Positions 23,736 to 64,000 of a stretch of DNA of 64,000 nt are shown one piece after another. Under the pieces are notes generated by a model. That model made no database searches and was not told the origin of the DNA. It was given only the letters and a program-made list of their open reading frames with translations. The stretch is from an uncultured Clostridia bacterium (lineage in GTDB: Bacteria > Bacillota > Clostridia > Christensenellales > Borkfalkiaceae): NCBI GenBank assembly GCA_944372575.1, contig CALVZS010000007.1, positions 10,132 through 74,131 of the forward strand. Reading direction: 5' to 3'. Both the position numbers and the translations under genes were made by a program. Numbering within the stretch: position 1 is the first letter of the stretch; every line of letters begins with the position of its first letter.

Positions 23736-24476
23736 ATGGAACTCATCTATGAAAGCGCAGGGAAGAAATTCTACCGCGACGGGAACAAGCTCATCAAGTC
23801 GTTTGACGAGAGCTATTCCAAGGCGAACATCCTCAACGAAGCGCTCAACCAGGCGCGCGTGGAGGAGACGGGGCTGAACATCCCCAAGATTCTCGCCGTC
23901 ACGGTGGTGGACGGCAGGTGGGCGATCGTCCGCGAACTCATCGAGGGCGAGACGCTCGAATCGCTCATGGAAAAGCATCCCGAGAAGGAGGATGAATACC
24001 TCAACTTCTTCGTTGACCTGCAGATCCGCATGAGCAAGGAGCGCGTACCCCTTCTGGGTCATCTGCGCGACAAGATGCACATGAAGATCTCCTCGAGCGC
24101 CTATCCCGCCACGGTGCGCTACGATCTGCATATGCGCCTGGACGGCCTGCCTCGGCACAACAAGCTCTGCCACGGCGACTTCCAGCCCAGCAACATCATC
24201 ATCACTTCGGACGGCACGCCCTACATCGTCGACTGGTCGCACGCCACGCAGGGCAACGGCTCGGCGGATGCCGCGCGCACATACCTCATCTTCAAGTTGC
24301 AGGGCAAGGACGCGCTCGCCGAAAAGTACCTCAATCTCTTCTGCGCCAAGACGGATACTGCTATTCAGTATGTTCAGCGCATTCTGCCCATCGTCGCGGC
24401 GTCCCAGTCCGTCAAAGGCAAGCCGGAGGAGAAGGAATTCCTCGACAAGTGGGTCAACGTCTGCGATTGGCAGTAA
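23736..24476 (+). CDS. aminoglycoside phosphotransferase (APH)/choline-kinase-like phosphotransferase family protein
   Basis: 246 aa. Catalytic loop CHGDFQPSNIIITSDGTPYIVDWSHA (HGD...N...D). The stop TAA is immediately followed by repeat copy A. Confidence 0.75.
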   Translation: MELIYESAGKKFYRDGNKLIKSFDESYSKANILNEALNQARVEETGLNIPKILAVTVVDGRWAIVRELIEGETLESLMEKHPEKEDEYLNFFVDLQIRMSKERVPLLGHLRDKMHMKISSSAYPATVRYDLHMRLDGLPRHNKLCHGDFQPSNIIITSDGTPYIVDWSHATQGNGSADAARTYLIFKLQGKDALAEKYLNLFCAKTDTAIQYVQRILPIVAASQSVKGKPEEKEFLDKWVNVCDWQ

Positions 24477-24806
24477 AAGGGTTCACACTTTTTCTTTCGA
24501 ACTGACGAAAGAAAAAGTCGTGAGTTTTATAGACAACCCATTGCACGCCGCAAAAGCGGCTGACAATGTGTTTGTCTCAACCGCGCCAATCAAAATGCGA
24601 TTTTGCTTGCGCGAGTGATGGATGGCAGGTTCACACGTTTTTCCGCGAACTGACGTCGTCGGAACGGAGCGCAATGCGCAGCTGTTTGGCAAAGCCAAAC
24701 AGCACGCTGAAAACGCTCGTTCCTCCTCTTCGCAAAAAATCTTTGCGCAGCAAATCTTTTTTGCGAACCACTGCGAAAGCCGATATATCTCGTGAGGGAA
24801 AGGACA
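24477..24806 (+). repeat. modular structured repeat, copy A (H1 hairpin 24482-24524; module 2 at 24629-24785)
   Basis: Shares the H1 hairpin with copies B and C, and a ~110-nt core with copy B. Starts 1-5 nt after the TAA of the upstream gene. Confidence 0.8.
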
Positions 24807-32777: not shown

Positions 32778-33171
32778 GTTTTCCTTCAAATCACGGAATC
32801 GTTTTAACCGCAGCCACTCGCAAAAAAGATTTGCTTTGCAAAGATTTTTTGCGATGAGGAGGGACGAGCGTTTTCAGCGTGCTGTTCGGCTTTGCCGTAC
32901 AGCCGCATATTGCGCTCCGTTCCGACGAGCCTTTGCGTGAGAAAATCCGTGAACTGGTTATAATTATTCGCGCAAGGAGGGTTTCCCTCCGCCAGCGCCC
33001 CACATTTGCGCATACCTGTGCTTATGCGGAAAGAGTGAAGGCGGCGATGTTATAATTGTTGCCAATTATCGCCGCAAAGAGAAAACCCGCGGTCAGCCAA
33101 AGGCGTGTCCGCGGGTTTTCTCTCAAACTCACGACTTTTTCTTTCATCAGTTTGAAAGAAAAAGTGTGAAC
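32778..33171 (-). repeat. modular structured repeat, copy B (H1 33128-33171; H2 33083-33125; H3 about 33048-33082; module 2 32808-32955)
   Basis: Reverse-strand copy. The G of the ATPase TAG stop is the first base of GTTCACAC. Module 2 is about nine-tenths identical to copy A by eye. Confidence 0.8.
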
Positions 33172-35858
33172 TATTTGTGATGTCTCACCAGATCGAACGC
33201 CTTGGCGATCTCCATCACGATGATGGGGACAAAGGCGAGCGCCACGCCGATGACGTACATTTCCCAGCCCAGGTACTCGGTGCCGAATCCGAACACATCC
33301 ATGACGCCCGGCGTGAACAGCACGAACGCAATGAGTGCGATCGCCAGCAGCGTCACCCAGTTGAGCACCTTGTTGGAGAACGGCCCCACCTTGAAGAGGG
33401 AATGCCCCGAGCGCATATTGTAGGCGTGCAGCGACTGCGAGAGGGCGAGCACCAGGAAGGTCGCCGCGCTCAGCTTTTCGGAGTTTGCCGCGGCAAGGGC
33501 CTCGTCGGCGACCGTCGGATCCCAGCCGAAGCCGTAGCGGCCGATGCAGTAGCTCGCCAGCGCCAGCGCCGCGAACATGCACCCCTGCAGCACGATCTGC
33601 AATCCGTAGCCGTGGGCGAAGATGCTCTCCGTCTTGGAGCGCGGCTTATGATCCATGACGTCCGGCTCCAGCTTTTCCATGCCCAGCGCCACGGCGGGCA
33701 GCGAATCGCCGATCAGGTTGATCCACAGCAGCTGGATGGAGATGAAGGGGGAAACTTGCCAGATACACATGGCAAGGAACACCACGATGACCTCAGAGAT
33801 GTTGGTTCCGAGCAGAAAGCCGACCACCTTTTTGATATTGGAGTAGATCCCGCGCCCTTCCTTGACGGCATCGACGATGGTGGCAAAGTTGTCGTCGGTG
33901 AGCGTCATGTCGGCGGCGCCCTTGGCGACGTCCGTTCCCGTGATGCCCATCGCACAGCCGATGTCGGCGGCCTTGAGGGCGGGCGCGTCGTTCACGCCGT
34001 CCCCCGTCATGGAGACCACCTGGCCCTTCTTCTGCCATGCCTTGACGATGCGGATCTTGTTCTCGGGGGAGACCCGGGCATAGACGGAGATGTTCTCCAC
34101 CTCCTGGTCCAGCTCCTCGTCGCTCATCGCGTCCAGCTGCGCACCCGTGATGGCCTTGTCGCCCTCCAGAAGGATGCCCAGTTCTCTGGCAATGGCGGAC
34201 GCCGTGACGACGTGGTCGCCCGTGATCATGACGGGCTTGATGCCCGCCTTGCGGCAGACGGCAACGGCCTCCTTCGCCTCGGGGCGGGGCGGGTCGATCA
34301 TGCCCACAAGCCCTAAGAAGGTCAGCCCGTTCTCCAGTTCCTCCGGCGTGGGATCGTCGGAGACGCGGTCGATATACTTGTAACCGACGGCGAGCACGCG
34401 CAGGGCGTCCGCGCTCATCTCGTCGTTCGCCTTCCTTGCCGCCTCGATGTCGCCCGCGATGCACTTGGTCGCCATGACGTCGAAGGCGCCCTTGACGATG
34501 GCGACGAGTTTGCCGTCGATGCGGTTGACGCTCGTCATGAGCTTTCTGTCCGAGTCGAAGGGGATGCCCGCGATGCGGGGATATTCCTCGTTGAGGACGT
34601 CCTTCGTGCTGCCTGCCTTATAGGCGGCATAGACGATGGCGGTCTCGGTGGGGTCGCCCAGATGCACTTCCTTGCCGTCCTCCACCTCCACGGAGCCGTC
34701 GCAGCACAGCGTTCCCCAGTCGAGCAGCCTGCGCACTTCGGGGGAGGCGTTTGCCGCGTCGAAAGTCTGCACGGCGCCGCCGTCGAGATAGGTCTTGACG
34801 AGGGTCATGCGGTTCTGGGTGAGGGTACCCGTCTTGTCCGAGCAGATGACGGAGGCGGAGCCGAGCGTCTCCACGGCGGGCAGGCGCTTGATGATGGCGT
34901 TCTTTTTGACCATGCGCGTCACGCCGATGGAGAGCACGATGGTGACCACGGCGGGCAGCCCCTCGGGGATGGCGGACACGGCGAGCGAGACGGCCGTCAT
35001 GAACAGCTCGATCCAGTCCGGTTCGGGCATACAGGCGCCGATGATGAAGATGACGGCGCACGCCGCCAGCGCGACGATGCCCAGATATTTGCCGAGCTGG
35101 GCAAGTTTTTGCTGCAGCGGCGTCTTGGTCTCCTTTTCGCCCGCGAGCAGTCCGGCGATCTTGCCCATTTCGGTGTTCATGCCCGTCCCGGTGACGACCG
35201 CCTTGGCGGTGCCGTAGGTCACCGAGCAGCCGGAGAATACCATGTTGTCCCGGTCTCCGAGGGGGGCCTTCCCGTCGACGATGGCACGGGCGTCCTTTTC
35301 GGAGGGGACGCTCTCGCCCGTCAGCGCCGATTCCTCGCTCTTTAAGTTGGTCGAGGTGATGAGGCGTGCGTCTGCGGGAACAAAATCTCCCGCCTCCAGG
35401 ATGATGATGTCCCCGGGGACGAGGTCGGCCGCCTGGATAAAGTGTTCCTTCCCGTCGCGGATGACGCGCGCATGGGGGGCGGACATATTTTTGAGCGCCT
35501 CCAATGCCTTCTCCGCCTTGCTCTCCTGCACAAGGCCCATGACGGCATTGAGGATGACGATGAAGATGATGAGGGCGGGTTCGACAAATTCAAGCGGGTC
35601 GCCGTTTCTGCCCGGGGTGAATACCTCATAGCAGATGACGCCGAAGGAGACGCACGCCGCGATCAGCAGGATGATGATCATGACATCCTTGAACTGCTCC
35701 AGAAAGCGGATGATGAGCGGCTTTTTCTTCTTCTCTGCCAGCTTGTTCGGGCCGAACTTGGCGAGCAGCTCCTGCGCCCGTGCGGACGAGAGCCCCTGTT
35801 CGGCGTCCGTGCCGAGGGACTTCAATACTTCCCCGGCGGGTTGATCGTGATACGTCAA
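33171..35858 (-). CDS. P-type Ca2+-transporting ATPase (P2A/P2B-like)
   Basis: 895 aa. CSDKTGTLTQNRM phosphorylation site, MITGDH and MTGDGVNDAPALKAADIG. Confidence 0.93.
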   Translation of the reverse strand: MTYHDQPAGEVLKSLGTDAEQGLSSARAQELLAKFGPNKLAEKKKKPLIIRFLEQFKDVMIIILLIAACVSFGVICYEVFTPGRNGDPLEFVEPALIIFIVILNAVMGLVQESKAEKALEALKNMSAPHARVIRDGKEHFIQAADLVPGDIIILEAGDFVPADARLITSTNLKSEESALTGESVPSEKDARAIVDGKAPLGDRDNMVFSGCSVTYGTAKAVVTGTGMNTEMGKIAGLLAGEKETKTPLQQKLAQLGKYLGIVALAACAVIFIIGACMPEPDWIELFMTAVSLAVSAIPEGLPAVVTIVLSIGVTRMVKKNAIIKRLPAVETLGSASVICSDKTGTLTQNRMTLVKTYLDGGAVQTFDAANASPEVRRLLDWGTLCCDGSVEVEDGKEVHLGDPTETAIVYAAYKAGSTKDVLNEEYPRIAGIPFDSDRKLMTSVNRIDGKLVAIVKGAFDVMATKCIAGDIEAARKANDEMSADALRVLAVGYKYIDRVSDDPTPEELENGLTFLGLVGMIDPPRPEAKEAVAVCRKAGIKPVMITGDHVVTASAIARELGILLEGDKAITGAQLDAMSDEELDQEVENISVYARVSPENKIRIVKAWQKKGQVVSMTGDGVNDAPALKAADIGCAMGITGTDVAKGAADMTLTDDNFATIVDAVKEGRGIYSNIKKVVGFLLGTNISEVIVVFLAMCIWQVSPFISIQLLWINLIGDSLPAVALGMEKLEPDVMDHKPRSKTESIFAHGYGLQIVLQGCMFAALALASYCIGRYGFGWDPTVADEALAAANSEKLSAATFLVLALSQSLHAYNMRSGHSLFKVGPFSNKVLNWVTLLAIALIAFVLFTPGVMDVFGFGTEYLGWEMYVIGVALAFVPIIVMEIAKAFDLVRHHK

Positions 35859-60472: not shown

Positions 60473-61201
60473 ATGGTCGGAAGAGTGCATTCCTACGAAT
60501 CGTTCGGCACGGTGGACGGCCCCGGCATCCGCTTCGTGGTCTTTCTGCAGGGCTGTCCCATGCGCTGCAGATACTGTCATAACCCCGACACCTGGGACGC
60601 GCGCGGGGGGCGGGAGGTCACGGCGGAGGAAGTCGCCCGCGAAGTGCTCAAATACAGGAACTACTTCGCCGACCGCGGCGGCGTCACCCTCTCGGGCGGC
60701 GAGCCCCTTTTGCAGCTCGACTTCGTGCTGGAACTCTTTTCCATTCTCAAAAAAAAGGGCATCCGCACCTGCCTGGATACCTCCGGCATCTGCTTTTCGG
60801 AAGAGGATGCACGCTACGAGCGCCTTGCCGCCCTGACCGATCTCGTGCTCTTGGACATCAAGCACATCGACGATGCGGCGCATCGTGCGCTGACGGGGCA
60901 GAGCAACAAAAACCCGTTGGCGTTTGCGCGGTTTCTGGACGAACGCGGCGTGAAAATGTGGATCAGACACGTGCTCGTCCCCGGCATCACGGACGACGAC
61001 GGGGCGCTCAGGGAGCTGCGCGCCTTCCTCGACACCCTCACCAATGTGGACAGGGTGGAGGTGCTGCCCTATCACACGATGGGGGTGCAGAAGTACAGAA
61101 AGCTGGGCATTCCCTATCCCCTGGAGGGGGTGCAGCCCCCTGCCCGCGAGCGGGTGGAGAATGCCGGACGTATATTATCGGACAGACAGGAGCGGCTATG
61201 A
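60473..61201 (+). CDS. pflA: pyruvate formate-lyase activating enzyme (radical SAM)
   Basis: 242 aa. GPGIRFVVFLQGCPMRCRYCHNPDTW with a CxxxCxxC cluster. Confidence 0.93.
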   Translation: MVGRVHSYESFGTVDGPGIRFVVFLQGCPMRCRYCHNPDTWDARGGREVTAEEVAREVLKYRNYFADRGGVTLSGGEPLLQLDFVLELFSILKKKGIRTCLDTSGICFSEEDARYERLAALTDLVLLDIKHIDDAAHRALTGQSNKNPLAFARFLDERGVKMWIRHVLVPGITDDDGALRELRAFLDTLTNVDRVEVLPYHTMGVQKYRKLGIPYPLEGVQPPARERVENAGRILSDRQERL

Positions 61202-61470
61202 GCAGATTTTCTCTTCTGGAAGTGAGCGGCGAATCGTGCGCCAACTGCCTGACGCTTCTGCCCGTGGTGAACCGCCTCGCGGCGGTGCGCGGGCTGGAGG
61301 TGGAGCATCTGGAGGTGAGCGAGGCGACCGCCGGGCGGGTGCGCGCCCTCGGCATTGACCGCGTTCCCACGCTCATCGTCTTAAAGGACGGCGCGGAGGT
61401 CGCCCGATGCACGGGCTATCAGCCGGAGGAGATCCTGGAACTCTGGCTGGATGCGAAGATACAGGAATAA
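61198..61470 (+). CDS. thioredoxin-fold protein (CANC motif)
   Basis: 90 aa from the ATG at 61198 (ATGA overlap with pflA). LLEVSGESCANCLTLLPV...VPTLIVLKDG fits the thioredoxin pattern. Confidence 0.7.
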   Translation: MSRFSLLEVSGESCANCLTLLPVVNRLAAVRGLEVEHLEVSEATAGRVRALGIDRVPTLIVLKDGAEVARCTGYQPEEILELWLDAKIQE

Positions 61471-61521: not shown

Positions 61522-63549
61522 ATGAATTTTGAACATGCATGGCGCGGCTTTGAACGCGGCAAATGGAGCAACAACGAGGTCGACGTACGCGACTTCATTC
61601 AGCGCAATTATACCCCCTATGAGGGGGATTCCTCCTTCCTCGCTCCCGCCACCGAGGCGACCAAAAAGCTCTGGGCGCAGGTGATGGAGCTCACGCGTGA
61701 GGAGCGCGCGCGGGGCGGCGTGTACGACGCCGATACCGAGATCGTCTCGCGCGTCAATTCGCATGGGGCGGGCTATTTCAACAAGGATCTGGAAAAGATC
61801 GTGGGATTGCAGACGGATGCACCCTTTAAGCGCTCCCTGCAGCCCTTCGGCGGCATCCGCATGGCGGAGGAAGCGCTCAAGATGTACGGGTATGAGATCT
61901 CGCCGCGCGTAAAGGAGATCTTCACCAAGTACCGCAAGACGCACAACGACGGCGTGTTCGACGCCTACACGCCCGAAATGCGCCTGGCGCGCCACGCGCA
62001 CATCCTCACCGGACTGCCCGACACCTACGGCCGCGGGCGCATCGTGGGGGACTACCGCCGCGTCGCCCTCTACGGCGTGGACTACCTCATCAAAAAGAAG
62101 CAGGAGGACAAGCGCCTTCTGGACGGCGAAATGACGCCCGACAAGATCCGCGACAGGGAGGAGATCTCCGAGCAGGTGAAGGCGCTCGGCAGGCTCAAGG
62201 AGATGGCGGCGGCGTACGGCTTCGACATCTCCCGCCCCGCCGAGACGGCGCAGGAGGCGGTGCAGTGGCTGTACTTCGGCTATCTTGGCGCCATCAAGGA
62301 TCAGAACGGCGCGGCGATGTCCATCGGCCGCAACTCCACCTTCCTCGACATCTACATCCAGCGTGACCTGGATGAGGGCAAGCTCACCGAGCGGGAGGCG
62401 CAGGAGCTCATCGATCACTTCGTCATGAAGCTGCGTGTGGTCAAGTTCATGCGCATCAAGGAATACAATGAACTCTTCAGCGGCGATCCGACGTGGGTCA
62501 CCGAATCCATCGGCGGCATGGGCGTGGACGGCAGGACGCTGGTCACCAAGAACAGTTTCCGCATCCTGCACACCCTTGTCAACCTCGGTCCCGCGCCCGA
62601 GCCCAACCTCACGGTGCTCTGGTCAAAGCGCCTGCCCAAGAACTTCAAGACGTTCTGCGCGGAGATCTCCATCGCCACGTCCGCCATCCAGTACGAGAGC
62701 GACGATCTGATGCGGCCGGAGATGGGGGACGACTACTGCATCGCCTGCTGCGTGTCGAGTATGCGCGTGGGCAAGGATATGCAGTTTTTCGGCGCGCGCG
62801 CCAACCTTGCCAAGTGTCTGCTCTATGCCATCAACGGCGGCAAGGACGAGTTGGAAAAGGACAAGACGGGCAAGCCCCTGCAGGTGTCGCCCGCCTTTGC
62901 GCCCATCCTCGGCGACGGGCCGCTCGACTTCGAGGAGGTCAGGGAAAAGTACACGCAGATGATGCGCTGGCTGGCGGGGCTGTATGTGAACACGCTCAAC
63001 GTCATCCACTATATGCATGACAAGTACTGCTATGAGGCGCTCGAGATGGCGCTGCACGATTCGCAGGTGCGTCGCTTCTTTGCCACGGGCATCGCGGGGC
63101 TCTCCTGCGCGGCGGATTCCCTCTCCGCGATCAGGTACGCCAAGGTGTATCCCGTCCGCAACGAGGACGGCATCGTCACCGATTTTAAGATTGAGGGCGA
63201 CTATCCCAAGTACGGGAACAACGACGACCGCGTGGACGAGATCGCCGTATGGCTGGTCAAGACGTTCATGAACTTCATCAAGTCATACACCACCTACCGC
63301 GAATCGGTTCCGACCATGTCCATCCTCACCATCACCTCCAACGTGGTGTACGGCAAGAAGACGGGCAACACACCGGACGGCAGAAGGGCGGGGCAGCCGC
63401 TCGCGCCGGGCGCCAACCCCATGCACGGCAGGGATCACAGCGGTGCGCTCGCCTCGCTGGAGTCGGTGGCAAAGCTGCCCTATGACTACGCGCGGGACGG
63501 CATCTCCAACACCTTCTCGGTTACGCCGCAGTCGCTGGGGAAAGAGTAA
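61522..63549 (+). CDS. pflB: formate C-acetyltransferase (pyruvate formate-lyase) body, ending before the glycyl-radical domain
   Basis: 675 aa. Catalytic Cys pair in CIACCVS. Ends ...[14 protein letters not shown], where full-length PflB continues for about 80 more residues. Confidence 0.9.
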
Positions 63550-63750
63550 AGGGGTTCACACTTTTTTCCGCGAACTGACGCGGAAAAAAGTCGTGATTGA
63601 AAGGAAAGCCCAACGTTCGCCAAAGGCTCTGCGTTCGGTTTTCCTCTGCGCGGGCAGTGGCAACAGTTGTAGCGCCCGCGCATTCACCTTTCCGCAAAAG
63701 CCGCGTGTGCGGCAAAACATTTCATATCGTAAAAACAGGAGGAAACTACC
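63550..63750 (+). repeat. modular structured repeat, copy C (H1 63555-63596; H2 63602-63645; H3 63647-63682; H4 about 63688-63708), inserted within pflB
   Basis: Has the same H1 hairpin and conserved loop as copies A and B. H2 and H3 are homologous to copy B with different stems. It ends in AGGAGG-N8-ATG. Confidence 0.8.
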
Positions 63751-63987
63751 ATGGCAAACGAGAGAGCGGAAAATCTGGTCAATATGTTGGATGCCTATGT
63801 GGCGGACGGCGGGTATCATTTGAACGTCAACGTGTTCAACCGCGATACCTTGCTGGATGCGCAGAAGCACCCCGAAAAATATCCCCAGCTCACCATCCGC
63901 GTGAGCGGCTATGCGGTGAACTTCAACAAGCTGACCAAAGAGCAGCAGGATGACGTCATCGCCCGCACCATCCACGAGAGCATGTGA
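63751..63987 (+). CDS. stand-alone glycyl-radical domain (C-terminal fragment of PflB, GrcA/YfiD-like)
   Basis: 78 aa. ...[35 protein letters not shown] carries the RVSGY glycyl-radical signature. It has its own AGGAGG SD and is in the same reading frame as the upstream body. Confidence 0.85.
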
Positions 63988-64000
63988 CATGGCAAAGCTC

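What the first reader, a model, noticed from the sequence alone, without database searches (positions are those of the whole stretch)
63547..63753. pflB is cleanly split before its glycyl-radical domain by a 207-nt structured insert that brings a stop codon, an SD and a new ATG
**What the sequence shows.** The 675-aa PflB body ends ...SLGKE-TAA at 63547-63549. A separate 78-aa ORF carrying the RVSGY glycyl-radical motif starts 201 nt later at 63751, with AGGAGG 8 nt upstream.

**Nothing appears lost.** From memory, E. coli PflB reads ...ALGKDDEVRKTNLAGLMDGY... Here it is SLGKE | [16 protein letters not shown], so the residue count across the junction is conserved to within one residue. The TAA-to-ATG span is 207 nt, so both pieces are in the same frame, but the insert has four in-frame stops (TAA, TGA, TAG, TAA). 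Readthrough therefore cannot rejoin them.

**Nature of the insert.** It is not random DNA. It is copy C of a hairpin-rich repeat that also follows the stop codons of two other genes in this window.

**Possible explanations.**
- A small self-splicing or otherwise processed intron-like RNA.
- A naturally split glycyl-radical enzyme, whose radical domain is made as a separate GrcA/YfiD-like spare-part polypeptide.
- A recent MITE-like disruption that happens to preserve both halves.

I do not know of a described split of PFL at this position.
Basis: partly seen in the sequence, partly recalled or inferred. Interest (0 to 1): 0.85.

Follow-up and report, generated by a model that had tools for sequence, protein, structure and literature searches.

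The report
Naturally split PFL with repeat insert
The pyruvate formate-lyase gene here really is in two pieces, but the split is an old two-gene arrangement shared by many gut anaerobes (a 675-aa body plus a 78-aa GrcA3-type radical subunit), and the 'insert' is a copy of a dispersed hairpin repeat that later landed in the short gap between the two genes.

Summary
The PFL body (61522-63549) and a 78-aa glycyl-radical ORF (63751-63987) are separated by 201 nt of highly structured DNA with four in-frame stops. The two pieces are colinear with intact PFL to within one residue.

The causal reading is wrong. Of 78 related species-level loci, 66 are split at the same point. The closest relatives that lack the element have only an 11-40 nt spacer (TAA-AGGAGG-N8-ATG). 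Cutting the element out of the window restores that spacer, so the stop codon, SD and ATG are ancestral.

Both pieces are under strong purifying selection (dN/dS 0.03-0.19). All 77 tails have their own SD, and the frame offset between body and tail varies. This excludes an intron, readthrough or a pseudogene.

The tail matches NCBIfam 'GrcA3' (NF038360) at 156.1 bits against a cut-off of 158. Two body-only PDB entries (38la, 38lb) exist, but I found no paper on a natural split.

The insert (63554-63725) is one of three window copies, and of at least 95 metagenome copies, of a four-hairpin repeat. The repeat shows very strong covariation and usually starts 0-7 nt after a stop codon.

Verdict: a new member of a database-known but unpublished kind of split PFL. 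Moderately interesting.

The parts
60473..61201 (+). pflA, the pyruvate formate-lyase activating enzyme (242 aa)
   Evidence: TIGR02493 PFLA scores 314.5 bits against a cut-off of 231.75. The same gene order is seen in L001-L009.
61198..61470 (+). 90-aa thioredoxin-like ORF. Its start overlaps the pflA stop and it sits between pflA and the PFL body.
   Evidence: Pfam Thioredoxin PF00085 scores 27.3 bits against a cut-off of 23.5. It falls below the NCBIfam thioredoxin cut-offs. It is conserved in L001-L009.
61522..63549 (+). PFL body: 675-aa formate C-acetyltransferase without the C-terminal glycyl-radical domain. The active-site Cys-Cys (ACCVS) is at residues 408-412 and the stop TAA at 63547-63549.
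   Evidence: TIGR01255 scores 1084.7 bits (cut-off 994.2) over profile positions 1-662 of 744. PFL-like PF02901 matches, plus the first half of Gly_radical PF01228. The body is about 80% identical to the 687-residue PDB chain 38la_A, ending at the same ...SLGKE. dN/dS is 0.06-0.19.
63554..63725 (+). Copy C of a dispersed four-hairpin repeat element. Hairpins: H1 63556-63596, H2 63602-63645, H3 63647-63682, H4 63700-63713. The inserted DNA spans roughly 63553-63736.
   Evidence: Covariance model R1 scores 161 bits, E = 6e-42. The fold has z = -6.0. The family shows 91.7% paired cells, 46 of 48 pairs with double-sided changes, and a covariation score of 0.46 against 0.15 for shuffles. It is absent from the same spacer in L011-L013, L015 and L019.
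63737..63742 (+). Shine-Dalgarno sequence AGGAGG of the tail gene. It is ancestral and was not brought by the insert.
   Evidence: Element-free relatives have the same TAA-AGGAGG-N8-ATG context. An SD is found upstream of 77 of 77 tail ORFs.
63751..63987 (+). Tail: 78-aa GrcA3-type glycyl-radical subunit. The RVSGY motif has its radical glycine at G53. It corresponds to E. coli PflB residues ~677-759.
   Evidence: NF038360 GrcA3 scores 156.1 bits (cut-off 158) over profile 2-78 of 78. TIGR01255 profile positions 664-744 are covered. PDB matches are 6owr GrcA 67-127 (E = 4e-25) and 1h16 PflB 681-759. dN/dS is 0.026-0.094.
32996..33171 (-). Copy B of the repeat element. It is full length and starts at the TAG stop of ORF 33171..35858 (-).
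   Evidence: R1 scores 159.6 bits. Sequence, ORF.
24481..24673 (+). Copy A of the repeat element. It is a composite: H1 plus other modules, with a second partial H1 at 24628-24655. It starts 4 nt after the TAA stop of ORF 23736..24476 (+).
   Evidence: R1 scores 72.7 bits. Sequence, BLAST, ORF.

Best explanation
The locus encodes a naturally two-piece pyruvate formate-lyase.

The first piece is a 675-aa catalytic body that carries the Cys-Cys active site but ends just before the glycyl-radical domain. The second is a separately translated 78-aa subunit of the GrcA3 type. It supplies the last barrel strand, the RVSGY radical loop and the C-terminal helix, plus about 15 extra N-terminal residues ([10 protein letters not shown]...) that probably serve as a docking helix.

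Shown here: the two genes are colinear with intact PFL, are syntenic in 77 loci from many taxa, each have their own translation signals, and are both under purifying selection. The activase pflA lies two genes upstream.

Inferred: the pieces assemble non-covalently. PflA installs the radical on G53 of the small subunit. Oxygen damage then costs the cell only a 78-aa cartridge rather than the whole enzyme.

The 172-nt structured insert is a later arrival. It is one copy of a dispersed, modular, four-hairpin intergenic repeat of the REP/BIME/MITE type. It landed between the stop codon and the SD of a pre-existing ~15-25 nt spacer in the ancestor of this species group (the window, L006 and L066 all carry it). 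It did not create the split, is not spliced, and has been tolerated for a long time. Its effect on expression is unknown. One possibility is that it breaks translational coupling or acts as a partial terminator or RNA stabiliser through hairpin 2.
For: - Breadth of the split: it is found at the same point in 66 of 78 GTDB species loci, including Ca. Gallimonas, Scatosoma, Christensenellaceae, Breznakia, Ruminococcus, Collinsella and Gastranaerophilales.
- Ancestral spacer: the closest element-free relatives have 11-40 nt spacers with TAA-AGGAGG-N8-ATG. Excising the element restores that spacer.
- Translation signals: an SD precedes 77 of 77 tails, tail lengths are 77-84 aa, and frame offsets 0/1/2 occur 25/38/14 times.
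- Selection: dN/dS is 0.06-0.19 for the body and 0.026-0.094 for the tail, out to saturated dS.
- Completeness: profile coverage is 1-662 plus 664-744 of TIGR01255. ACCVS and RVSGY are present. pflA is adjacent.
- Database picture: all 120 best body homologues are 672-686 aa and all 120 best tail homologues are short.
- Family: tails of 10 split lineages score 153.7-168.4 bits on GrcA3.
- Experimental analogue: engineered E. coli tPFL(1-695) plus truncYfiD(61-127) can be activated and is catalytically active (PMC8683613).
- The insert: 3 window copies against 0 expected, 95 copies with E <= 1e-10 in 475 kb of metagenome loci, very strong covariation, and no Rfam family.
Against: - No expression, assembly or activity data exist for any split PFL that I could find.
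- In E. coli the engineered tPFL:YfiD pair is activated poorly (about 30-fold lower; PMC8683613), so non-covalent assembly is not guaranteed to be efficient.
- Only 64 kb of this genome is visible, so an intact second pflB elsewhere cannot be excluded. None is present in the window.
- The window's tail falls 1.9 bits below NCBI's GrcA3 cut-off.
- Hairpin 2 of the insert resembles an A-tract/stem/U-tract terminator and could reduce tail transcription. The simple scan found no promoter in the insert.
Confidence: 0.8

Rival explanations
1. The small ORF is a true spare part, as E. coli GrcA/YfiD is. Under this reading it repairs an intact PFL encoded elsewhere in the genome, and the radical-domain-less body is inactive on its own or has another role.
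For: NCBI names the family 'autonomous glycyl radical cofactor GrcA3' with the model tag 'rad_fix'. GrcA can insert into full-length or oxygen-cleaved PflB in E. coli (PMC8683613; Kammel and Sawers 2022, cited). Only 64 kb of the genome is visible.
Against: - The tail begins exactly where the body ends, so nothing is duplicated or missing.
- It lacks the ~60-residue disordered N-terminus that E. coli YfiD needs for efficient activation.
- The body is under strong purifying selection although it has no radical domain.
- Body and tail are adjacent in 77 of 77 loci.
- No second PFL is present in the window.
Confidence: 0.1
2. One reading: a mobile structured insert recently split an intact pflB and supplied the stop codon, SD and ATG. 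Both halves happened to survive, in the manner of the homing-endonuclease 'genes in pieces' ribonucleotide reductase of phage Aeh1 (recalled from memory, not checked here).
For: The insert is a mobile-looking repeat. Copies of the family usually abut stop codons. The body is 1-2 codons shorter in element-bearing lineages (...KE* or ...KEE*) than in neighbours (...KDED*).
Against: - Element-free sister lineages are already split at the same residue with their own TAA, AGGAGG and ATG.
- Excision restores the ancestral spacer.
- The split extends to distant phyla that lack this element.
Confidence: 0.02
3. The insert is an intron-like or otherwise processed RNA, or a recoding signal, and one full-length PFL is made.
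For: The fold is very stable (z = -6). The spacer length is a multiple of three in this window.
Against: - No Rfam intron or ribozyme match was found (best E = 3.6, far below gathering scores).
- There are four in-frame stops.
- The same element sits after the stops of unrelated genes.
- Relatives have 11-40 nt spacers, and frame offsets vary 25/38/14.
- Covariation is poor in G-U pairs, as expected for DNA palindromes.
Confidence: 0.01
4. The insert is more than selfish DNA. Under this reading it is a functional cis-acting 3'-UTR or intercistronic RNA module, such as an exonuclease barrier or partial terminator, that sets the body-to-tail expression ratio.
For: - 33 of 52 copies start 0-7 nt after a same-strand stop codon.
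- Hairpin 2 has the layout of an A-tract, GC stem and U-tract.
- The element has been kept at the PFL site across lineages with dS up to ~0.6.
- Structure is strongly conserved.
Against: - The simple terminator scan does not call it.
- Near-absence of G-U pairs suggests constraint at the DNA level.
- Most relatives do without it.
- The modular, mosaic copies look like BIME or BOX type repeats.
Confidence: 0.2

Closest known systems
NCBIfam NF038360 'autonomous glycyl radical cofactor GrcA3' (78-position model)
   Same: The tail gives a full-length match (2-78 of 78). Tails of every split lineage tested score 153.7-168.4 bits. Length, RVSGY motif and C-terminal helix all agree.
   Different: The window's tail scores 156.1 bits, 1.9 below the curated cut-off. 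The family name implies a repair ('rad_fix') role. Here and in all 77 loci, however, the neighbouring PFL lacks its own radical domain, so the protein looks like the only radical subunit and not a spare one.
E. coli GrcA/YfiD spare-part protein acting on oxygen-cleaved PflB (PDB 6owr; PMC8683613)
   Same: It is a separately encoded polypeptide carrying the PFL radical domain, activated by PflA, which completes a PFL that lacks a working radical loop. Tail residues 18-78 align with YfiD 67-127 at E = 4e-25.
   Different: YfiD is 127 aa with a disordered 60-residue N-terminus and coexists with an intact 760-aa PflB encoded elsewhere. It displaces residues 696-733 rather than abutting the body. 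The tail scores 99.9 bits against a cut-off of 170 on TIGR04365.
Engineered tPFL(1-695) plus truncYfiD(61-127) (Andorfer et al. 2021, PMC8683613)
   Same: This is a two-piece PFL with no overlap between the pieces and the same architecture as the wild type. It is catalytically active once activated.
   Different: It is artificial and poorly activated, and it is cut at residue 695/696. The natural split lies at about 677/678, so the natural tail carries about 15-18 extra N-terminal residues that the engineered piece lacks.
PDB 38la (687 residues) and 38lb (739 residues), both 'Formate acetyltransferase'
   Same: 38la_A aligns with the whole body (1164.7 bits) and ends at the same ...SLGKE. Neither entry has a radical-domain chain.
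   Different: They come from other organisms. 38lb has about 54 extra C-terminal residues. I found no paper on them. They are absent from the Foldseek PDB library of releases up to 2026-04-08, so they are probably newer.
REP/BIME, BOX, ERIC and Correia-type small intergenic repeats (recalled from general knowledge, not tested against their models)
   Same: These are multi-copy, non-coding, hairpin-rich, modular elements found in intergenic and 3'-UTR positions. Their structure is conserved while the stem sequences vary.
   Different: There is no sequence relationship and no Rfam match. The element has four defined hairpins with conserved loops (AACTGA, GCAACA). It shows a strikingly tight position 0-7 nt after stop codons. 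No associated transposase was identified.

Membership tests
Pyruvate formate-lyase (formate C-acetyltransferase, TIGR01255) | Score above the curated cut-off | tested here: met
   The body scores 1084.7 bits against a cut-off of 994.2, over profile positions 1-662 of 744.
Pyruvate formate-lyase (formate C-acetyltransferase, TIGR01255) | Adjacent active-site cysteines (E. coli C418/C419) | tested here: met
   ACCVS lies at body residues 408-412 and is invariant in alignment A3.
Pyruvate formate-lyase (formate C-acetyltransferase, TIGR01255) | C-terminal glycyl-radical domain (RVSGY) on the same polypeptide | tested here: not met
   The body stops at profile position 662. RVSGY lies on the separate 78-aa ORF.
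Pyruvate formate-lyase (formate C-acetyltransferase, TIGR01255) | Cognate radical-SAM activase | tested here: met
   pflA at 60473-61201 scores 314.5 bits on TIGR02493 against a cut-off of 231.75.
GrcA3 (NCBIfam NF038360) | Full-length match at or above the curated cut-off of 158 bits | tested here: inconclusive
   The tail scores 156.1 bits over profile 2-78 of 78, 1.9 bits short. The orthologue in L011 scores 158.4, and 8 of 10 tails from other split lineages pass.
GrcA3 (NCBIfam NF038360) | Glycyl-radical motif and C-terminal helix of the PFL radical domain | tested here: met
   RVSGY lies at residues 50-54. Pfam Gly_radical model positions 51-106 match at 83.6 bits.
E. coli-type GrcA/YfiD (TIGR04365) | Score above the cut-off of 170, and a ~60-residue N-terminal extension | tested here: not met
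   The tail scores 99.9 bits, and only profile positions 60-126 are matched. The protein is 78 aa in total.
E. coli-type GrcA/YfiD (TIGR04365) | Coexistence with an intact PFL that it repairs | not testable with these tools
   No second PFL is found in the 64-kb window, but the rest of the genome is not available.
Self-splicing introns and small ribozymes (Rfam) | Match to any intron or ribozyme covariance model | tested here: not met
   The best hits in 63300-64000 have E = 3.6-7.1 and 10-16 bits, far below the gathering scores, and none is an intron or ribozyme.
Self-splicing introns and small ribozymes (Rfam) | Exons that join into one reading frame, with the insert absent from intron-less alleles of a continuous gene | tested here: not met
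   Element-free alleles are still two genes with a stop, SD and ATG. Frame offsets vary.
Small non-autonomous intergenic repeats (REP/BIME/MITE-like) | Many dispersed copies in intergenic DNA | tested here: met
   There are 3 copies in the window and 95 with E <= 1e-10 in 475 kb of metagenome loci. 36 of 52 copies lie within 40 nt downstream of a long ORF.
Small non-autonomous intergenic repeats (REP/BIME/MITE-like) | Conserved hairpin structure with variable stem sequence | tested here: met
   91.7% of cells are paired against 69.4% in shuffles. 46 of 48 pairs change on both sides. The covariation score is 0.46 against 0.15 for shuffles and at most 0.10 for slid registers.
Small non-autonomous intergenic repeats (REP/BIME/MITE-like) | Terminal inverted repeats or target-site duplication, and a cognate transposase (for example a RAYT) | not tested
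   A possible 3-nt AGG duplication flanks the window copy. I did no systematic analysis and did not search for a transposase.

The most novel reading that the evidence does not exclude
GrcA3-type loci are obligate two-subunit glycyl radical enzymes. The radical-bearing domain of PFL is made as a separate, replaceable 78-aa 'cartridge'. This would be the prevailing form of PFL in many gut Clostridia, Coriobacteriia, Erysipelotrichales and Melainabacteria. Fission and re-fusion have happened more than once. In Ruminococcus, Oscillospiraceae and Lachnospiraceae lineages there is also a third small ORF whose N-terminus mimics the cartridge's docking segment. None of this is described in the literature I could search, and the 2026 GRE review mentions only YfiD-type spare parts.
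Probability: 0.55. Interest if true: 0.7.

Novelty: new member of a known kind. Interest (0 to 1): 0.45.

Why it matters
PFL is the most widespread glycyl radical enzyme and a central node of anaerobic carbon flux in the gut. It is irreversibly cleaved at the radical glycine by oxygen.

If the radical domain is routinely made as a separate 78-aa subunit, three things follow:

- Oxygen damage becomes cheap to repair.
- Activation by PflA might occur on the free small subunit or on the complex.
- The E. coli GrcA 'spare part' would look like a derived special case of a more general two-piece design.

There are practical consequences too. Genome annotation and metabolic models that count a ~675-aa 'formate C-acetyltransferase' as complete, or that count GrcA3 as an accessory repair factor, misdescribe these loci. 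Natural body/tail pairs are also ready-made material for engineering oxygen-tolerant or modular glycyl radical enzymes.

For this particular window the lesson is negative. The striking structured insert is a bystander repeat and not the cause of the split.

Tried and rejected
1. Rfam scan of 63300-64000 at E <= 10: only four chance-level hits.
2. Simple sigma-70 promoter and intrinsic-terminator scan of 63300-64000: nothing called. Whether hairpin 2 terminates transcription, or whether the tail has its own promoter, stays open.
3. Literature: nine searches found no paper on a natural split. Terms covered split PFL, GrcA3, truncated formate acetyltransferase, small subunit, and the PDB codes. 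One search was badly designed and uninformative. A tenth look-up failed on a term that was too short.
4. AlphaFold2 of the body with a 14-sequence alignment in which every homologue is at least 86% identical to the window body: pLDDT 41.5, unusable. The Foldseek run on it recovered E. coli PFL through sequence only (TM 0.25). I used it solely to note that 38la and 38lb are not in the library of releases up to 2026-04-08.
5. RNAalifold on the MAFFT alignment missed hairpin 3 because of gap placement. Re-aligning to a covariance model fixed this.
6. Pseudogene: rejected on dN/dS.
7. Assembly artefact: rejected on 10 independent contigs.
8. Readthrough or frameshift: rejected on the four in-frame stops and the variable frame offsets.
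Full report
**1. The observation**

- The PFL body is ORF 61522..63549 (675 aa) and ends ...SLGKE-TAA at 63547-63549. The 78-aa ORF 63751..63987 carries RVSGY. AGGAGG sits at 63737-63742, 8 nt before the ATG.
- The 207-nt TAA-to-ATG span has in-frame stops at 63547, 63598, 63670 and 63730.
- The junction loses nothing. The body covers positions 1-662 and the tail 664-744 of the formate C-acetyltransferase profile TIGR01255. The Pfam Gly_radical model is itself divided, with model positions 2-48 on the body and 51-106 on the tail. On E. coli PflB the body ends at residue 677, and tail residue 5 aligns with 681.
- The insert folds at -83.4 kcal/mol, z = -6.0.
- The same layout, with the element, is present in at least 10 independent metagenome assemblies, so it is not an assembly or sequencing error.

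**2. The split is older than the insert**

I fetched 80 species-level genome loci related to the C-terminal part of the body. Of the 78 that reach the junction, 66 are split at the same point and 12 are intact. Split loci come from Ca. Gallimonas, Scatosoma, Christensenellaceae, Breznakia, Ruminococcus, Oscillospiraceae, Lachnospiraceae, Collinsella/Coriobacteriaceae and Gastranaerophilales. The intact ones are mainly Bacillus and Paenibacillus.

The closest relatives without the element have very short spacers. L011 and L013 (Gallimonas, ~89% identical) read ...SLGKDED-TAA-AGGAGGAACTTGTT-ATG-SNQQTENLV.... Removing the element from the window leaves TAA-AGG/AGGAGGAAACTACC-ATG, which matches the L011 spacer over its first 12 bases. 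The stop codon, SD and ATG are therefore ancestral. The element landed between the stop and the SD, possibly with a 3-nt AGG duplication.

**3. Both pieces are real genes and are not rejoined**

Across 77 split loci:
- every tail ORF has an SD;
- tails are 77-84 aa;
- spacers range from 11 to 427 nt;
- the tail's frame relative to the body is 0/1/2 in 25/38/14 loci.

That excludes conserved readthrough, frameshifting or splicing.

Pairwise dN/dS between the window and 14 relatives is 0.06-0.19 for the body and 0.026-0.094 for the tail, wherever dS is not saturated. The active-site ACCVS is present in the body and the radical glycine (G53) in the tail. pflA lies two genes upstream. No other PFL-like sequence exists in the window.

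All 120 best database homologues of the body are 672-686 aa and, where named, are called formate C-acetyltransferase. All 120 best homologues of the tail are short.

**4. What is already known**

NCBIfam holds a 78-position model, NF038360 'autonomous glycyl radical cofactor GrcA3'. The window's tail matches it end to end at 156.1 bits against a cut-off of 158. Tails from ten other split lineages score 153.7-168.4, and eight of them pass. GrcA3 is therefore, in practice, the radical piece of split PFLs.

The PDB sequence file contains two 'Formate acetyltransferase' entries. 38la (687 residues) ends at the same ...SLGKE. 38lb (739 residues) is a body plus about 54 other residues. Neither has a chain matching the tail. 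Both are missing from the Foldseek library of releases up to 2026-04-08, and no paper in the library cites them. They are probably very recent.

Nine full-text searches found no description of a natural split PFL. The 2026 GRE review mentions only YfiD/GrcA spare parts.

The nearest experimental analogue is the engineered E. coli pair tPFL(1-695) plus truncYfiD(61-127). It has the wild-type architecture and is active, but it is poorly activated (PMC8683613). The natural split lies about 15-18 residues further upstream, so the natural tail carries an extra N-terminal segment ([10 protein letters not shown]...).

**5. Most likely mechanism**

Shown:
- two colinear, co-located, selected genes, each with its own translation signals;
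- the activase next door.

Inferred, from the E. coli GrcA work and the engineered pair:
- the 78-aa subunit docks into the body and supplies the last barrel strand and the Gly loop;
- PflA makes the radical on G53;
- oxygen cleavage then destroys only the small subunit, which can be replaced.

The main rival is that GrcA3 repairs an intact PFL encoded elsewhere. I could not test this for lack of the whole genome. It fits poorly with three facts: the pieces abut exactly, the tail lacks a YfiD-like N-terminus, and the radical-less body is under strong selection.

**6. The insert**

The hairpin-1 frame TTCACAC-N11-AACTGA-N11-GTCGTGA occurs three times in the window against 0.00 expected, and in 69 metagenome stretches. 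Across the true element copies in these loci the two 11-nt arms are complementary or nearly so (8-11 of 11 bases) in several different stem variants.

I built a covariance model from 28 full-length copies (172 positions, 48 pairs).
- In the window it finds 63554-63725 (161 bits), 32996-33171 on the minus strand (159.6 bits) and a composite copy at 24481-24673 (72.7 bits).
- In 475 kb of loci it finds 95 copies at E <= 1e-10. These loci were chosen for carrying the element, so that density is biased.

On the model-based alignment:
- 91.7% of cells pair, against 69.4% in shuffles;
- 46 of 48 pairs change on both sides;
- the covariation score is 0.46, against 0.15 for shuffles (0 of 500 reach it) and at most 0.10 for slid registers.

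The caveat is that an alignment fitted to the model leans towards its structure. However, RNAalifold on a plain MAFFT alignment already showed 20 of 32 pairs with compensatory changes.

G-U pairs are rare. That is what DNA-level palindromes would give, rather than an RNA-only structure (inference).

Copies are modular, with some carrying hairpin 1 or hairpins 1-2 followed by other modules. Of 52 distinct copies, 33 start 0-7 nt after the stop codon of an ORF of at least 100 codons on the same strand. No Rfam family matches.

I therefore read the insert as a REP/BIME/MITE-like intergenic repeat. Whether it also acts as a terminator or RNA stabiliser here is open. Hairpin 2 has an A-tract/stem/U-tract layout, but the simple scan calls no terminator or promoter.

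**7. History at this site**

The element is present at the PFL spacer in the window's species, in L006 and in L066. L006 has dS ~0.22 to the window and L066 has dS ~0.5-0.6. L066 also carries about 230 further nt.

The L006 copy is only ~70% identical over hairpins 1-3, while the more distant L066 copy is 83% identical. This suggests replacement or conversion from another copy.

On a rough NJ tree, intact forms L016 and L022 sit beside the Gallimonas clade. L058 (Treponemataceae) sits inside the Ruminococcus clade and has a 32-aa linker at the junction. Fission or fusion therefore happened more than once.

**8. Verdict**

The locus is a further member of the GrcA3-type split PFLs. That kind is curated in NCBIfam and represented in the PDB, but as far as I could find it is not described in papers. 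Interest is moderate. The headline claim falls. What remains worth following up is the under-described and apparently widespread two-piece PFL, together with an abundant structure-constrained repeat that hugs stop codons.

Noticed in passing
L054:3805-4110 (Ruminococcus callidus). Also L027-L029, L035-L038, L041, L049, L051, L053, L055-L057, L061, L062, L064, in each case between body and tail.: In many split-PFL loci the 210-340 nt 'spacer' holds a conserved 53-76 aa ORF. Its N-terminus (ELVDMIDKLMEDGSGHLTI...) is homologous to tail residues 4-30 (hhalign probability 91.6%, E = 8e-7). It continues with a DC..G..AC.QPT motif and an acidic end. It may be a third subunit or a placeholder for the radical-domain slot. 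It is absent from the window's lineage.
   Followed up: partly
52 distinct element copies in the window, L066 and L091-L159. In the window: 24481, 33171 (-) and 63554.: The hairpin repeat starts 0-7 nt after the stop codon of a same-strand ORF of at least 100 codons in 33 of 52 copies. That is an unusually tight and oriented placement for a selfish repeat. I did no matched-background control.
   Followed up: partly
Alignment A6 (95 element copies): Covariation in all four hairpins is almost entirely Watson-Crick to Watson-Crick, with very few G-U intermediates. This suggests the constraint acts on DNA palindromes (for example ssDNA hairpins recognised by a transposase), or on both strands, rather than on one RNA.
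   Followed up: no
window 61198-61470 (+): A 90-aa thioredoxin-like ORF overlaps the pflA stop and sits between pflA and the PFL body. It passes the Pfam Thioredoxin threshold (27.3 bits against 23.5) but falls below the NCBIfam cut-offs. It is conserved in all same-species contigs. A redox partner inside a PFL operon is unusual.
   Followed up: partly
window 63989-64000 (cut off by the window end); full ORF at L001:6239-6514: A 91-aa ORF starts 1 nt after the tail's stop. It has a basic N-terminus, a CPHC...CPYC zinc-ribbon motif and a C-terminal hydrophobic segment. It appears to be part of the same operon in this lineage.
   Followed up: no
L006:5798-5990 compared with window 63550-63735 and L066:3751-3925: The element copy at the PFL site in L006 (flanking dS ~0.22) is only ~70% identical to the window's over hairpins 1-3 yet 87% identical over the last ~60 nt. 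The more distant L066 (dS ~0.5-0.6) is 83% identical. This looks like replacement or gene conversion of part of the element from another copy.
   Followed up: partly
L058:3726-4057, L016:3137-3369, L022:3750-3982: These are intact PFLs nested among split ones on a rough NJ tree. L058 has a 32-aa linker (DSSIDLASMKNYGNCMSCDTATIMAAPTVAETLANP) at the split point. It looks like a re-fused split gene that may have absorbed part of the middle ORF.
   Followed up: partly
PDB entries 38la and 38lb: Two 'Formate acetyltransferase' structures of radical-domain-less PFL bodies, with 4 chains each and no small-subunit chain. They are absent from the PDB fold library of releases up to 2026-04-08, and no paper in the library cites them. 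They are probably unpublished 2026 work on the same kind of enzyme.
   Followed up: partly
L066:3925-4177; L014:3754-4050; L018 and L021 spacers: Other lineages have different hairpin-rich DNA in the same body-tail spacer: an extra ~230 nt in L066, 296 nt in L014, and 81-87 nt in L018 and L021. The intercistronic gap seems to be a recurrent landing site for small repeats.
   Followed up: no
window 24481-24673 (+): Copy A is a composite. A complete hairpin 1 is followed by a different hairpin module, and then by a second, truncated hairpin-1 start at 24628-24655. This shows the mosaic, tandem nature of the family, which is also seen as tandem pairs in L124, L137 and L147.
   Followed up: partly
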